Both the position numbers and the translations under genes were made by a program. Source: Escherichia phage Pisces. From it: a stretch of DNA of 39,497 bases. Below, one piece after another: positions 20,566-23,511 of the stretch. Each line of letters starts with the position of its first letter. The first letter of the stretch is position 1. Location: sequence record MK903277.1. One strand, given 5' to 3'. The notes below the pieces were generated by a model, which made no database searches, was not told the origin of the DNA, and saw nothing but the letters and a program-made list of their open reading frames with translations.

Positions 20566-21450
20566 ATGTCTCAATCAGTTTATGCCGAGTTCGGCGTTAG
20601 CCCCAATGCAATCACTGGCTCCGTTGAGGACCTGAACGAACATCAACAGTCTATGCTGGAGAAGGACGTAGCTGTCCGTGATGGCGATGATGCCATTACC
20701 TTCAAGCAACTGGAAGCCGAGCAGGAAGAGGCGACCGAAGAAGACGAGAACGTCGAAGAGACTGAAGGTGAAGAGACCGAAGGTAACGACGACGAGTCCG
20801 AGACCGAAGGTGATGATGATGTTGACTTCGTTGAACTTGGCGACACTCCGAAAGAGCTGACCGAAAGTGTCTCCGCTCTGGATGAGAATGAAGCTGCATT
20901 CGACGACATGGTGTCTGCTGCTGTAGAAGCTGGCAAGGTCACTGCTGATGACATCACCGCGATTAAGGCTGAATATGCCTCTAAAGGTGAGCTGTCCGAG
21001 GCATCCTACGCTAAGCTGGCTGAAGCTGGCTATACCAAGCGTTTCGTCGATTCGTTCGTCCGTGGTCAGGAAGCTCTGGCTGAGCAGTATGCTGCTGGCG
21101 TGGTTCGCTATGCAGGTGGTGCGGAGCAGTTCAACCGAATCCTGTCTCACCTTGAGGCCAACGACAAGTCCACCAAGGAAGCCCTTGAGTCTGCCATTAT
21201 CCGTAAGGACTTGGTGACAGCTAAGGCTATCCTGAATCTGGCTGGTCGTAACCTCGGTAAGGCTCGTGGCGTTCAGCCTCAGCGTACCATCACCACTCAG
21301 GGTAAACCAGCGGTTTCTGCACCGAAGGTCGAGACTGAAGGCTTTAGCTCCAAGGCTGATATGGTCAAGGCCATGAGTGACCCGCGCTATCTGCGTGACG
21401 CTAAGTACACGATGGATGTACGCGCTAAGGTTGCGGCGTCTAGCCTGTAA
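20566..21450 (+). CDS. Capsid assembly scaffolding protein (gene 9)
   Basis: Start at ATG 20566 (SD GGAGGA); acidic central region; SYAKLAE.GYTK.F.DS..RGQEAL and MSDPRY blocks as in T7 gp9. Confidence 0.9.
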   Translation: MSQSVYAEFGVSPNAITGSVEDLNEHQQSMLEKDVAVRDGDDAITFKQLEAEQEEATEEDENVEETEGEETEGNDDESETEGDDDVDFVELGDTPKELTESVSALDENEAAFDDMVSAAVEAGKVTADDITAIKAEYASKGELSEASYAKLAEAGYTKRFVDSFVRGQEALAEQYAAGVVRYAGGAEQFNRILSHLEANDKSTKEALESAIIRKDLVTAKAILNLAGRNLGKARGVQPQRTITTQGKPAVSAPKVETEGFSSKADMVKAMSDPRYLRDAKYTMDVRAKVAASSL

Positions 21451-21457
21451 GCTGGAC

Positions 21458-21478
21458 TAAACTATCACTATAGGGAGA
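21458..21478 (+). promoter_or_regulatory. Phage RNAP promoter (phi10-like), with 5' leader stem-loop
   Basis: TAAACTATCACTATAGGGAGA is the full consensus; transcript begins GGGAGACC...GGTTTCCC (stem-loop as in the T7 gene 10 leader). Confidence 0.85.
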
Positions 21479-21581
21479 CCAAGAGTAGAGACTCAAGGTT
21501 TCCCTGTAACTTCAGTCCATACGGATTGGGCATAACGAAGTCACTAAACTTTATCTTTCATTCGAATAGGAGAATTATCAT

Positions 21582-22622
21582 ATGGCAAACGTACCGGGTC
21601 AGAAAATTGGTCAGAACCAAGGTAAAGGCATTTCCAATACCGACCAGCTCGCACTGTTCCTGAAGGTCTTCGCTGGTGAAGTCCTGACCGCTTTCACTCG
21701 TCGTTCTGTGACCGCTGACAAACATATTGTCCGCACCATTCAGAACGGTAAGTCTGCTCAGTTCCCGGTCATGGGTCGCACCTCTGGTGTGTATCTGGCT
21801 CCGGGTGAGCGCCTGTCCGACAAACGTGTAGGCATCAAGCACACCGAGAAGGTAATCACCATTGATGGTCTGCTGACCGCTGACGTGATGATTTTCGACA
21901 TTGAAGACGCTATGAACCACTACGATGTGGCTGGCGAGTATTCCAACCAGCTCGGTGAAGCTCTGGCTATCGCTGCTGATGGTGCGGTACTGGCTGAGAT
22001 GGCGATTCTGTGTAACCTCCCGGCTGCATCTGATGAGAACATCGCTGGTCTGGGTAAAGCGTCCGTGCTGGAAGTTGGTAAGAAAGTAGACCTGAACACT
22101 CCGGCTAAGCTGGGTGAAGCAATCATTGGTCAACTGACCATTGCTCGTGCTCGTCTGACCTCCAACTATGTACCTGCTGGCGACCGTTACTTCTACACCA
22201 CGCCGGACAACTACTCCGCGATTCTGGCTGCTCTGATGCCGAACTCCGCTAACTACGCTGCGCTGATTGACCCTGAGACGGGCAACATCCGTAACGTAAT
22301 GGGCTTCGTGGTTGTTGAAGTTCCACACCTGACTCAGGGTGGTGCTGGCGAAACTCGTGGTGCTGATGGTATCACCATTGCGTCTGGTCAGAAACACGGC
22401 TTCCCGGCTACCTCTAGCGCTACCGTTAAGGTCGCTCTGGACAACGTTGTGGGCCTGTTCTCTCACCGTTCTGCTGTGGGTACTGTTAAGCTGCGTGACT
22501 TGGCGCTGGAACGTGACCGTGACGTCGATGCTCAGGGCGACCTGATTGTCGGTAAGTACGCGATGGGTCACGGTGGTCTGCGTCCAGAAGCTGCTGGTGC
22601 TCTGGTTTTCAGCCAGCCGTAA
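21582..22622 (+). CDS. Major capsid protein 10A
   Basis: 346 aa; near-collinear with T7 gp10A (QGKG, LALFLKVF.GEVLTAF, GKSAQFPV, KHTEKVITIDGLLTADV, YAMGHGGLRPEAAG). Confidence 0.97.
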   Translation: MANVPGQKIGQNQGKGISNTDQLALFLKVFAGEVLTAFTRRSVTADKHIVRTIQNGKSAQFPVMGRTSGVYLAPGERLSDKRVGIKHTEKVITIDGLLTADVMIFDIEDAMNHYDVAGEYSNQLGEALAIAADGAVLAEMAILCNLPAASDENIAGLGKASVLEVGKKVDLNTPAKLGEAIIGQLTIARARLTSNYVPAGDRYFYTTPDNYSAILAALMPNSANYAALIDPETGNIRNVMGFVVVEVPHLTQGGAGETRGADGITIASGQKHGFPATSSATVKVALDNVVGLFSHRSAVGTVKLRDLALERDRDVDAQGDLIVGKYAMGHGGLRPEAAGALVFSQP

Positions 22623-22885
22623 CAACCCTTAAGATGACTGGAGCTTCGGCTCCGGTTGTCCAGACTGTTAGTGGCAACGCTGGAGATAGCATAAAGGTTG
22701 AACTCACCGAACTGGCGTCAGTGACCGATTGGTCCAAGCTGGACGTAAGTGTGTCAGACCCTAGCGTCACCTTCACTCGCCGGACTAACAGCCTGTACTT
22801 TAAGGGTTCCGTTGCGGGGGACTACCAGATTATCATCGGCTACGATGGTTCGCCTGTTCGTTCCTTCGTGCTGACAATCAACTAA
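22604..22885 (+). CDS. Putative -1 frameshift extension of the capsid protein (10B-type), Ig-like domain
   Basis: The -1 frame is open across the 10A stop and continues to 22885; G GTT TTC sits 10 nt before the 10A stop; the downstream ATG at 22634 has no SD. Confidence 0.5.
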   Translation, partial: GFQPAVTTLKMTGASAPVVQTVSGNAGDSIKVELTELASVTDWSKLDVSVSDPSVTFTRRTNSLYFKGSVAGDYQIIIGYDGSPVRSFVLTIN

Positions 22886-22890
22886 TTGAA

Positions 22891-22928
22891 ACCCCTTGGG
22901 TGCCTTCGGGTGCTTGAGGGGTTTTTTC
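22891..22928 (+). terminator. T7-type late terminator (Tphi-like)
   Basis: CCCCTTGGGTGCC-TTCG-GGTGCTTGAGGGG hairpin with UUCG loop, followed by TTTTTTC; closely parallels T7 Tphi. Confidence 0.85.
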
Positions 22929-22944
22929 GTTAAGAGGAGGACTC

Positions 22945-23511
22945 ATGGCAGTCTATATCCCACTCAATACTAACGATGACTTGGACGCTATCAATGACAT
23001 GCTGGCGGCTATCGGCGAACCTGCGGTCCTGCAACTGGACGAGGGCAATGCTGATGTCTCCAACGCAATGCGCATTCTACAGCGAGTCAATCGTCAGGTC
23101 CAAGCTAAGGGCTGGAACTTTAACATCAACGAGGCTGCGGTCTTGACTCCAGACACCACGGACAACCAGATTCGCTGGCTGCCGTCTTACCTGCGGGTCA
23201 TGACTACAGGTGCCACCAGCTACTATAGCAACATGGGCGGTTACGTGTACGACCTCAGCACTCAGTCTACAACCTTCACGGCTGCAATCACGGTCGAGCT
23301 GGTAGAGCTGAAGCCTTATGGTGAGATGCCTGTGGTCTTCCGGGACTATATCGTGACCAAAGCCAGCCGAGAGTTCAACGCTAAGTTCTTCGGTAGTCCT
23401 GAGGCCGAGATGTATCTCCGTGAGCAGGAAGCCGAGCTGTACCAGCAGGTGATGGAATACGAGATGGACACCGGGCGCTACAACATGATGTCTTCCATCG
23501 GTCGAGACTAA
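22945..23511 (+). CDS. Tail tubular protein A (gene 11)
   Basis: 188 aa; IGEP, GWNFNI.E, GGYVYD and YIVTKASREFNAKFFG.PE match T7 gp11. Confidence 0.9.
   Translation: MAVYIPLNTNDDLDAINDMLAAIGEPAVLQLDEGNADVSNAMRILQRVNRQVQAKGWNFNINEAAVLTPDTTDNQIRWLPSYLRVMTTGATSYYSNMGGYVYDLSTQSTTFTAAITVELVELKPYGEMPVVFRDYIVTKASREFNAKFFGSPEAEMYLREQEAELYQQVMEYEMDTGRYNMMSSIGRD

What the first reader, a model, noticed from the sequence alone, without database searches (positions are those of the whole stretch)
22598..22885. Probable programmed -1 frameshift adding an Ig-like domain to the major capsid protein
The -1 frame relative to gene 10A is open from well upstream of the 10A stop (22620-22622) through to 22885. 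A G GTT TTC heptamer lies at 22604-22610, where T7 is reported to shift into 10B. The resulting ~93-residue extension (FQPAVTTLKMTGASAPVVQTVSGNAGDSIKVELTELASVTDW...GDYQIIIGYDGSPVRSFVLTIN) has the alternating beta-strand pattern of bacterial Ig-like domains, which are often added to phage capsid proteins by frameshifting. The ATG at 22634 has no ribosome-binding site, which argues against independent translation.
Basis: partly seen in the sequence, partly recalled or inferred. Interest (0 to 1): 0.65.

Follow-up and report, generated by a model that had tools for sequence, protein, structure and literature searches.

The report
Frameshifted capsid protein with Ig-like tail
This T7-like phage almost certainly makes a minor, longer version of its capsid protein by a programmed -1 ribosomal slip at G GTT TTC, which adds a small Ig-like domain; the trick is well known from phages T7, T3, K1F and CR8, so this is a sound but ordinary finding.

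Summary
Gene 10A (21582-22622) ends 12 nt after an in-phase G GTT TTC heptamer (22604-22610). The -1 frame is open from 22556 to its stop at 22883-22885, 4 nt before a Tphi-like terminator. Slipping there would give a 434-aa 10B (45.7 kDa, against 36.4 kDa for 10A).

All 57 distinct related loci carrying this extension have an in-phase NGTTTTC. Gene-10 loci without a long -1 extension mostly use synonymous, non-slippery Val-Phe codons. The extension evolves under purifying selection (dN/dS 0.06-0.28), has no conserved start codon and no Shine-Dalgarno sequence. AUG 22634 lies inside a 12-bp hairpin.

The same extension (97.8% identical) is already annotated as frameshifted 10B in Citrobacter phage CR8. 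The mechanism is the classic T7 10A/10B case, so this is a new member of a known kind.

Side observations: the 10B cassette was swapped between phage genera, and a hairpin of unknown role is conserved in position downstream of the slip site.

The parts
21456..21478 (+). Phage-RNA-polymerase promoter-like sequence upstream of gene 10 (ACTAAACTATCACTATAGGGAGA)
   Evidence: Read directly. It resembles the T7 class III consensus ...CACTATAGGGAGA (own knowledge). CR8 has an annotated promoter at the equivalent place after gene 9. Context only; not tested.
21582..22622 (+). Gene 10A, major capsid protein (346 aa, 36.4 kDa), stop TAA 22620-22622
   Evidence: ORF. Pfam Gp10A-like, E 2.4e-103. Close solved homologues 9vvq, 7y23 and T7 2xvr. 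Strong Shine-Dalgarno sequence aggag.
22604..22610 (+). Slippery heptamer G GTT TTC (Val342-Phe343), the proposed -1 shift site
   Evidence: It is the only + strand copy in the window. An in-phase NGTTTTC is present in 57 of 57 distinct loci with this extension. It is associated with -1 extensions of 40 codons or more across gene-10 loci (50/2/6/13, Fisher p = 4e-8). It is the same motif as the T7 gene 10 site (PMC1635266).
22556..22885 (+). Open -1 frame. The 10B-specific part is decoded from 22610 (CAG = Gln) to stop TAA 22883-22885 and gives a 434-aa, 45.7-kDa 10B
   Evidence: dN/dS is 0.06-0.28 against relatives. The +1 frame closes after 3 codons.
22610..22663 (+). Linker-coding segment (QPAVTTLKMTGASAPVV), low-confidence in the model
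   Evidence: AF2 pLDDT is 53-58 for residues 1-19. The alignment is shallow here because gene callers start these ORFs later. Length varies among relatives.
22633..22660 (+). RNA hairpin: 12-bp stem, UUCG loop, dG about -19 kcal/mol. It starts 22 nt after the heptamer and 10 nt after the 10A stop, and contains AUG 22634-22636
   Evidence: Each subfamily of this extension has its own hairpin starting at the same alignment column. In the Klebsiella-type subfamily, 17 pairs are 98.7% paired, with compensatory changes at 2 pairs. Its role was not tested.
22664..22882 (+). Ig-like beta-sandwich domain (extension residues 20-92, seven strands)
22890..22927 (+). Tphi-like intrinsic terminator (long GC-rich stem, UUCG loop, U run), 4 nt after the 10B stop
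   Evidence: 17-bp stem in the fold. Terminator-like site. Conserved in relatives.

Best explanation
The window is the genome of a T7-like coliphage: a Kayfunavirus backbone closest to Escherichia phage IMM-002.

Most ribosomes translating the abundant gene 10 mRNA stop at TAA 22620 and make the 346-aa major capsid protein 10A. A minority slip back one nucleotide while decoding G GUU UUC (22604-22610). The A-site tRNA-Phe re-pairs from UUC to UUU, and the P-site tRNA-Val re-pairs imperfectly from GUU to GGU.

The shifted ribosomes read CAG CCA GCC ... to TAA 22883. The product is a 434-aa minor capsid protein 10B: residues 1-343 of 10A, a linker of about 18 residues, and a 73-residue Ig-like beta-sandwich. 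Because the T7-type gp10 C-terminus faces outward, the domain would be displayed on a fraction of capsid subunits. There it most plausibly gives weak adhesion to glycans or cell and mucus surfaces, as proposed for other phage Ig-like domains.

Shown here:
- the sequence anatomy;
- conservation of the in-phase heptamer;
- selection on the -1 frame;
- absence of initiation signals;
- the predicted fold.

Inferred by homology: that shifting occurs, its efficiency (about 10% in T7), incorporation of 10B into virions, and the adhesive function.
For: - Anatomy.
- Same heptamer as the T7 gene 10 shift site, with about 10% shifting (PMC1635266). K1F, from the same genus, makes 10B by a -1 shift, and GFP fused to g10b gives fluorescent virions (PMC6277420).
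- The CR8 extension is 97.8% identical. It is annotated as 10B via a -1 frameshift at 'tttt', with mass-spectrometry matches. Phage Peacock has a joined CDS for the same arrangement.
- 57 of 57 distinct loci of this extension family keep an in-phase NGTTTTC 15-24 nt before the 10A stop. None has a -1 stop between the heptamer and the domain.
- Across 71 distinct gene-10 loci, a slippery motif goes with a -1 extension of 40 codons or more (50/2/6/13, p = 4e-8). Loci without an extension use GTC TTC, GTG TTC or similar.
- dN/dS of the extension is 0.06-0.28.
- No conserved start codon and no Shine-Dalgarno sequence before AUG 22634, which lies inside a -19 kcal/mol hairpin.
- Fold. There is a weak full-length profile alignment to a Big_2 repeat. 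Sibling phages carry a bona fide Big_2 domain at the same frameshifted position, as reported for T3 (PMC13320782, citing Fraser 2006).
Against: - No protein data exist for this phage. The CR8 mass-spectrometry note does not say that 10B-specific or junction peptides were seen.
- The heptamer is not a perfect X XXY YYZ.
- No stimulatory structure sits at the canonical 5-9 nt. The conserved hairpin starts 22 nt downstream. The extended stem that starts 5 nt downstream in the MFE fold is not conserved across subfamilies.
- In this lineage an AUG lies 11 nt after the 10A stop, so termination-reinitiation cannot be excluded from sequence alone.
- The loci compared are phylogenetically related, so the Fisher p-value overstates independence.
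- The domain matches no Pfam Ig family at threshold. hhalign against the Big_2 extensions of sibling phages gives 0.2% probability.
Confidence: 0.9

Rival explanations
1. The 22634-22885 ORF is translated on its own as an 83-aa protein ('gp10.1'). This could happen by direct initiation at AUG 22634, or by reinitiation of ribosomes that have just terminated at the 10A stop 11 nt upstream.
For: An in-frame ATG exists at 22634. It is close to the 10A stop, so translational coupling is physically possible. Many GenBank records and gene callers annotate a stand-alone hypothetical protein here.
Against: There is no Shine-Dalgarno sequence, unlike genes 10A and 11. The AUG is base-paired in a 12-bp hairpin. 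The ATG is absent in the Peacock-type, Klebsiella-type and Pectobacterium-type members of the same family, and no start codon is conserved at any one position. The ORF is always in the -1 frame of 10A, always overlaps an in-phase slippery heptamer, and never has an intervening -1 stop. None of these is needed for a stand-alone gene.
Confidence: 0.05
2. The frame change is made at the RNA level. The phage RNA polymerase would stutter on the T4 run of GGTTTTC and produce a minority of mRNAs with one extra or one missing base, which are then translated normally.
For: The shift site contains a short homopolymer. The CR8 record marks only 'tttt'. Transcriptional slippage is an established route to alternative phage proteins (own knowledge).
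Against: Known productive transcriptional slippage needs runs of roughly 6-9 or more identical bases (own knowledge); four T is very short. What is conserved is the whole phased heptamer, including G/C/A-GTTTTC and its reading phase, which fits tRNA re-pairing. The T3-type relatives use C CCA AAG at the same place, a classic tRNA-Lys slip motif with no homopolymer run longer than three bases. T7 10B is attributed to ribosomal frameshifting (PMC1635266).
Confidence: 0.03
3. The -1 ORF is an unexpressed evolutionary remnant, and the heptamer is there only because Val-Phe is conserved in the capsid protein.
For: The heptamer alone is not statistically unusual in a 39-kb genome. Some relatives keep GGTTTTC with truncated or frame-broken extensions (L024, L025, L050).
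Against: dN/dS is 0.06-0.28 over 250 nt that have no other coding constraint. The family is kept intact in more than 150 protein clusters and 454 phage records. It has a well-folded predicted domain. Val-Phe is encoded by non-slippery synonymous codons where no extension exists.
Confidence: 0.01

Closest known systems
Bacteriophage T7 gene 10A/10B programmed -1 ribosomal frameshift
   Same: Homologous capsid gene. Identical heptamer G GUU UUC at the homologous Val-Phe codons a few codons before the 10A stop. The -1 ORF runs to just before the Tphi terminator. There is no canonical closely spaced stimulator (PMC1635266).
   Different: The T7 extension is about 53 residues, basic, predicted helical or low-complexity (LTPAQKAARTRAANKARKEAELAA type), and unrelated to this one. 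Here the extension is 91 residues and ends in a folded Ig-like domain.
Citrobacter phage CR8 gene 10B (HG818824; genus Caroctavirus)
   Same: The extension is 97.8% identical in protein and 95-99% in DNA. It has the same heptamer and hairpin, and is annotated as a minor capsid protein made by a -1 internal frameshift, with mass-spectrometry matches.
   Different: The rest of the CR8 genome is only 57-86% identical in the flanking genes. The 10A stop is three codons later in CR8 (TGA). The window's backbone is Kayfunavirus IMM-002-like.
T3-type 10B with a Big_2 Ig-like domain (T3, phiYeO3-12 group; Fraser et al. 2006 as cited in PMC13320782)
   Same: An Ig-like domain of about 90 residues is appended to the capsid protein by a -1 frameshift at the same position in gene 10.
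   Different: The slip motif is C CCA AAG in the T3 type. The domain there is a clear Pfam Big_2 (E down to 8e-20), whereas the present domain has no Pfam hit. It is not detectably related to those Big_2 extensions by hhalign (0.2%).
Coliphage K1F gene 10b (type Kayfunavirus)
   Same: Same genus-level backbone, a -1 frameshift near the 3' end of gene 10, and a minor capsid protein that tolerates C-terminal fusions displayed on virions (PMC6277420, PMC13370021).
   Different: K1F adds only 44 codons of the T7-type basic tail, not an Ig-like domain.
Other phage surface Ig-like domains (lambda gpV C-terminal domain, T4 Hoc, Hoc-like proteins)
   Different: They sit on different carrier proteins and have different means of attachment. 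No sequence relationship was found.

Membership tests
T7-group gene 10A/10B -1 programmed ribosomal frameshift | Slippery heptamer G GUU UUC, in phase, at the homologous Val-Phe codons near the C-terminus of the major capsid protein | tested here: met
   22604-22610, phased G GTT TTC. It aligns with the same motif in T7-type, K1F-type and other gene-10 loci. T7 motif as in PMC1635266.
T7-group gene 10A/10B -1 programmed ribosomal frameshift | The -1 frame is open across the heptamer and continues well past the 10A stop, ending just before the late terminator | tested here: met
   Open 22556-22882, stop at 22883-22885, terminator at 22890-22927.
T7-group gene 10A/10B -1 programmed ribosomal frameshift | The extension is a real coding sequence, conserved together with the slip site | tested here: met
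   dN/dS 0.06-0.28. 57 of 57 loci have an in-phase NGTTTTC. Association of slip motif with extension, p = 4e-8.
T7-group gene 10A/10B -1 programmed ribosomal frameshift | No independent translation start for the extension | tested here: met
   No Shine-Dalgarno sequence. The AUG is inside a hairpin. No start codon is conserved in the family. Termination-reinitiation in this particular lineage is not formally excluded.
T7-group gene 10A/10B -1 programmed ribosomal frameshift | A larger gp10 species (10B) present as a minor virion component | not testable with these tools
   There is only the annotation note for the 97.8%-identical CR8 protein ('matches in mass spectrometry analysis'), plus published T7 and K1F data (PMC1635266, PMC6277420).
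Canonical -1 PRF cassette (X XXY YYZ, 5-9 nt spacer, stem-loop or pseudoknot; dnaX / IS911 / retroviral type) | Perfect X XXY YYZ heptamer that lets both tRNAs re-pair | tested here: not met
   In G GUU UUC the P-site shift GUU to GGU leaves a middle-position mismatch. Only the A-site shift UUC to UUU re-pairs fully. This is read from the sequence and is the same as in T7.
Canonical -1 PRF cassette (X XXY YYZ, 5-9 nt spacer, stem-loop or pseudoknot; dnaX / IS911 / retroviral type) | Stable structure starting 5-9 nt after the heptamer | tested here: inconclusive
   The robust hairpin starts 22 nt downstream. An extended stem starts 5 nt downstream in the MFE fold (z = -3.8), but it is not shared by other subfamilies. 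There is no Rfam match.
Pfam Big_2 (PF02368), bacterial Ig-like domain group 2 | Score above the Pfam gathering threshold | tested here: not met
   No Pfam family matches the window's extension even at E <= 1. None of 9 family members hits Big_2.
Pfam Big_2 (PF02368), bacterial Ig-like domain group 2 | Profile-level relatedness to known Big_2 domains | tested here: inconclusive
   hhalign against the Big_2 extensions of sibling phages gives probability 0.2%. The family profile does find tandem-repeat Big_2, Invasin and BACON proteins. It also aligns end to end with a Big_2 repeat of P0124, at E 1e-3 and probability 20%.
Ig-like beta-sandwich fold (structural class) | Seven-strand two-sheet beta-sandwich of about 70-100 residues, superposable on Ig-like domains | tested here: met

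The most novel reading that the evidence does not exclude
The positionally conserved hairpin may be a functional RNA element of the gene-10 recoding site that has not been described. It lies 18-31 nt downstream of the slip site and 1-10 nt downstream of the 0-frame stop. Its sequence differs in each extension subfamily, and one subfamily shows compensatory changes. It could be an unusually distant frameshift stimulator, or a device acting on ribosomes terminating at the 10A stop.

Together with the slip site and Tphi, it would frame a portable 'display cassette' that T7-like phages exchange across genera to swap capsid-surface domains.
Probability: 0.25. Interest if true: 0.45.

Novelty: new member of a known kind. 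Interest (0 to 1): 0.3.

Why it matters
For annotation: many public records of related phages call this ORF a stand-alone hypothetical protein, or even a minus-strand 'XRE regulator'. Recognising it as the frameshifted C-terminus of the capsid protein corrects them.

For biology: the survey shows that the T7-family gene-10 recoding site is a general docking point for at least three unrelated surface modules. One of them is an Ig-like domain family absent from Pfam and from the PDB. These modules move between genera.

For engineering: it points to a natural, tolerated display position and a natural Ig-like scaffold on Kayfunavirus and Przondovirus capsids. Such phages are used in therapy against E. 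coli and Klebsiella.

None of this changes current understanding of recoding.

Tried and rejected
- Pfam scan of the extension and of nine family members found no Ig family at threshold.
- hhalign of this family against the Big_2 extensions of sibling phages showed no relationship.
- A sequence search of the PDB with the family profile gave only a spurious match to an ENLYFQG tag region.
- An Rfam scan of 21400-23100 found nothing.
- I tested for a conserved long-range stimulator, prompted by my recollection that T7 needs distal 3' sequences. The window and CR8 have a strong complementarity between 22617-22632 and 22798-22817 (z about -3). The other subfamilies show nothing comparable (z about 0), so I rejected it as a general element.
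- An upstream Shine-Dalgarno-like stimulator (GGTG in GCTGGTGCT) is not conserved in relatives, which have GCAGGCGCA. Rejected.
- The Condron et al. 1991 and Sipley et al. 1991 papers on T7 could not be read. Details of the T7 3' requirement therefore rest on my memory and are not used as evidence.
- The CR8 genome announcement does not mention the frameshift; only the GenBank record does.
- Literature searches for a description of this particular domain as Ig-like found nothing.

Full report
**1. Observation**

The region was read directly and its ORFs listed.
- Gene 10A runs from 21582 to 22622. It encodes 346 aa, matches Pfam Gp10A-like at E 2.4e-103, and has close solved homologues including T7 gp10A.
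- In the 10A frame the 3' end reads GCT CTG GTT TTC AGC CAG CCG TAA. The heptamer at 22604-22610 is therefore phased G GTT TTC. It is the only + strand copy in the window.
- The -1 frame has a stop at 22553-22555. It is then open to TAA 22883-22885.
- The +1 frame closes 3 codons after the 10A stop.
- A shift on the heptamer gives 343 residues of 10A followed by 91 new residues (QPAVTT...LTIN). The product is a 434-aa protein of 45.7 kDa, against 36.4 kDa for 10A.
- The 10B stop lies 4 nt before a long GC-rich hairpin with a U run at 22890-22927, the Tphi-like terminator.

**2. What the window is**

The first 25 kb are 93.6% identical over 91% of their length to Escherichia phage IMM-002, genus Kayfunavirus, subfamily Studiervirinae. 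The window is thus the genome of a T7-like coliphage, and the feature lies in the classic gene 10.

**3. Related sequences**

- tblastn with the extension finds it in 454 phage records. The best is Citrobacter phage CR8 at 97.8% identity.
- The CR8 GenBank record annotates a joined CDS, '10B predicted minor capsid protein ... predicted translation by a -1 internal frameshift', with 'matches in mass spectrometry analysis' and a misc_feature 'tttt' on the slip site.
- Escherichia phage Peacock annotates the same arrangement.
- Many other records call the ORF a stand-alone hypothetical protein. IMM-002 even places a minus-strand 'XRE family transcriptional regulator' over it.

I then fetched 80 viral contigs through the conserved C-terminus of 10A, and 57 more through the extension itself.

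*Gene-10 loci in general.* The -1 frame after 10A carries one of three unrelated extensions:
- (a) a T7/K1F-type basic tail of about 45-55 residues (...LTPAQKAARTRAANKA...);
- (b) a bona fide Big_2 Ig-like domain (Pfam E down to 8e-20), found behind C CCA AAG in T3-type phages and behind G GTT TTC in others;
- (c) the present family (...DVTDWS...RRTNSLYFKG...YDG...).

Loci with no long -1 extension mostly encode the same Val-Phe with GTC TTC, GTG TTC or GTA TTT. Among distinct loci, a slip motif goes with an extension of 40 codons or more in the proportions 50/2/6/13 (Fisher p = 4e-8). The loci are related to one another, so this p-value overstates independence. Several 'exceptions' have variant motifs such as G CCA AAG or ACA AAG.

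*Family (c) loci.* All 57 distinct loci carry an in-phase NGTTTTC (54 GGTTTTC, 2 CGTTTTC, 1 AGTTTTC) 15-24 nt before the 10A stop. None has a -1 stop between the heptamer and the domain.

**4. Is the extension translated, and how?**

- Pairwise dN/dS of the part lying beyond the 10A stop is 0.06-0.28. The frame is therefore under purifying selection.
- AUG 22634 is preceded by ccagccgtaacaacccttaag, with no Shine-Dalgarno sequence. Genes 10A and 11 have aggag and gaggagg.
- That AUG lies inside a 12-bp hairpin with a UUCG loop at 22633-22660, about -19 kcal/mol.
- Other subfamilies have no ATG there, and no start codon is conserved at any one position.

Taken together, the constant -1 phase, the overlap with the heptamer and the published behaviour of the same heptamer make -1 ribosomal frameshifting by far the best explanation. 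In T7 the heptamer gives about 10% shifting (PMC1635266). In K1F it gives a 10B to which GFP can be fused and displayed on virions (PMC6277420).

I keep three rivals:
- independent initiation or reinitiation, about 5%;
- transcriptional slippage on T4, about 3%;
- a dead remnant, about 1%.

**5. The fold**

I built an alignment of the window's extension with 120 database homologues. AlphaFold2 then gives mean pLDDT 83: about 90 for residues 20-92 and 53-58 for the first 19, which form the linker. The model has seven beta-strands and no helices.

  - S-layer SbsC domains;
  - the Big domain of a GH10 xylanase;
  - invasin and intimin;
  - a Hoc-like capsid protein.
- Foldseek against viral models first returns the family's own member, Pectobacterium phage PP81 'minor capsid protein'. 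BIG2 and other Ig-like domain proteins follow.
- At the sequence level no Pfam family reaches threshold. hhalign against the Big_2 extensions of sibling phages is negative.
- An exhaustive profile search finds only 13 cluster representatives. Among them are large tandem-repeat proteins rich in Big_2, Invasin/Big_1 and BACON domains. The profile aligns end to end with one Big_2 repeat at E 1e-3.
- No solved structure contains the domain.

The domain is therefore Ig-like by predicted fold. It is possibly a very divergent Big_2 relative, but it does not qualify as a Pfam Big_2 member.

**6. RNA context**

- There is no Rfam match.
- The heptamer is not a perfect X XXY YYZ.
- The robust hairpin starts 22 nt after the heptamer, too far for a canonical stimulator. 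In the 97-nt MFE fold an extended stem begins 5 nt downstream (z = -3.8).
- Each subfamily of extension (c) has its own, differently sequenced hairpin beginning at the same alignment column.
- The T7-type and K1F-type loci also have hairpins 4-20 nt downstream.
- In the Klebsiella-type subfamily, a 17-bp stem is 98.7% paired across 31 distinct sequences. Two of its pairs change on both sides: A-U to G-C in 11 sequences and C-G to U-A in 9. This could reflect only one or two evolutionary events.
- A long-range complementarity (22617-22632 with 22798-22817) is strong in the window and CR8, but is not shared by other subfamilies.

The role of the hairpin (stimulator, effect on termination, masking of the AUG, or nothing) remains open.

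**7. Mosaicism**

- Sliding identity shows that the window is 87-100% identical to IMM-002 through 10A and gene 11, but only about 60% across 22600-22900.
- The stretch 22500-22900 is 93-99% identical to CR8, whose flanks are only 57-86% identical.
- The 10B cassette has therefore been exchanged between phages of different genera. The exchange is bounded by the conserved slip-site region and Tphi.

**8. Comparison with what is known, and verdict**

The mechanism is the textbook T7 10A/10B frameshift. An Ig-like domain added by it is known for T3 (PMC13320782, citing Fraser et al. 2006). This very extension is already annotated as frameshifted 10B in CR8.

Modestly new points:
- extension family (c), which is widespread in Kayfunavirus, Caroctavirus, Klebsiella and Pectobacterium T7-like phages, has an Ig-like fold yet is absent from Pfam and the PDB;
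- it moves as a cassette between genera;
- a hairpin is positionally conserved downstream of the slip site.

Interest is about 0.3.

Noticed in passing
window 22500-22900 (compared with L004 = IMM-002 and L005 = CR8): Mosaic structure. The window follows IMM-002 (87-100% identity) through gene 10A and gene 11, but the 10B extension cassette is only about 60% identical to IMM-002. That cassette is 93-99% identical to CR8, a phage of another genus whose flanks are 57-86% identical. This implies horizontal exchange of the extension between the slip-site region and the terminator.
   Followed up: yes
window 22633-22660: A 12-bp hairpin with a UUCG tetraloop (about -19 kcal/mol) starts 22 nt after the heptamer and 10 nt after the 10A stop, and contains AUG 22634. 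Every subfamily of this extension has a different-sequence hairpin starting at the same alignment column. The Klebsiella-type version shows compensatory changes at two pairs. Function unknown.
   Followed up: partly
window 22617-22632 with 22798-22817: Long-range complementarity (CCGUAACAACCCUUAA with UUAAGGGUUCCGUUGCGG, about -25 kcal/mol, z about -3) between the region just 3' of the slip site and the codons for the conserved LYFKG motif. It is present in the window and the CR8 lineage only.
   Followed up: partly
L006-L085 (gene-10 loci of T7-like viral contigs): The same recoding position carries three unrelated -1 extensions: a T7-type basic tail, a Pfam Big_2 domain, and the present family. 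There are at least three slip motifs: G GTT TTC, C CCA AAG (also G CCA AAG), and possibly ACA AAG in L034 and L068.
   Followed up: partly
L004 1625-1855 (IMM-002), L001 1536-1790 (GA2A), and many records: Probable misannotations. IMM-002 has a minus-strand 'XRE family transcriptional regulator' laid over the 10B extension. GA2A, Dev2 (gp10.1) and many others call the extension a stand-alone hypothetical protein.
   Followed up: partly
L107, L109-L112 and similar Klebsiella-type loci, about 15-24 nt after the heptamer: Tandem 0-frame stop codons (TAA GCG TAA) end 10A. The second TAA is the one conserved across subfamilies and corresponds to the window's 10A stop.
   Followed up: no
L024, L025, L050: These loci keep GGTTTTC, but the -1 extension is truncated or changes frame midway. 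They may be decaying 10B genes or assembly errors.
   Followed up: no
P0124, P0128, P0130 (remote hits of the family profile): The profile of this extension family detects multiple tandem repeats in large proteins that also contain Big_2, Invasin_D3/Big_1 and BACON domains. This hints at an origin from bacterial or phage adhesin-type Ig repeats.
   Followed up: partly
L006 / L086 (IMGVR_UViG_3300045988_000030, 39938 bp): A metagenomic viral contig is 99-100% identical to the window across the 10A C-terminus and the extension. A near-identical phage genome is therefore already in IMG/VR.
   Followed up: no
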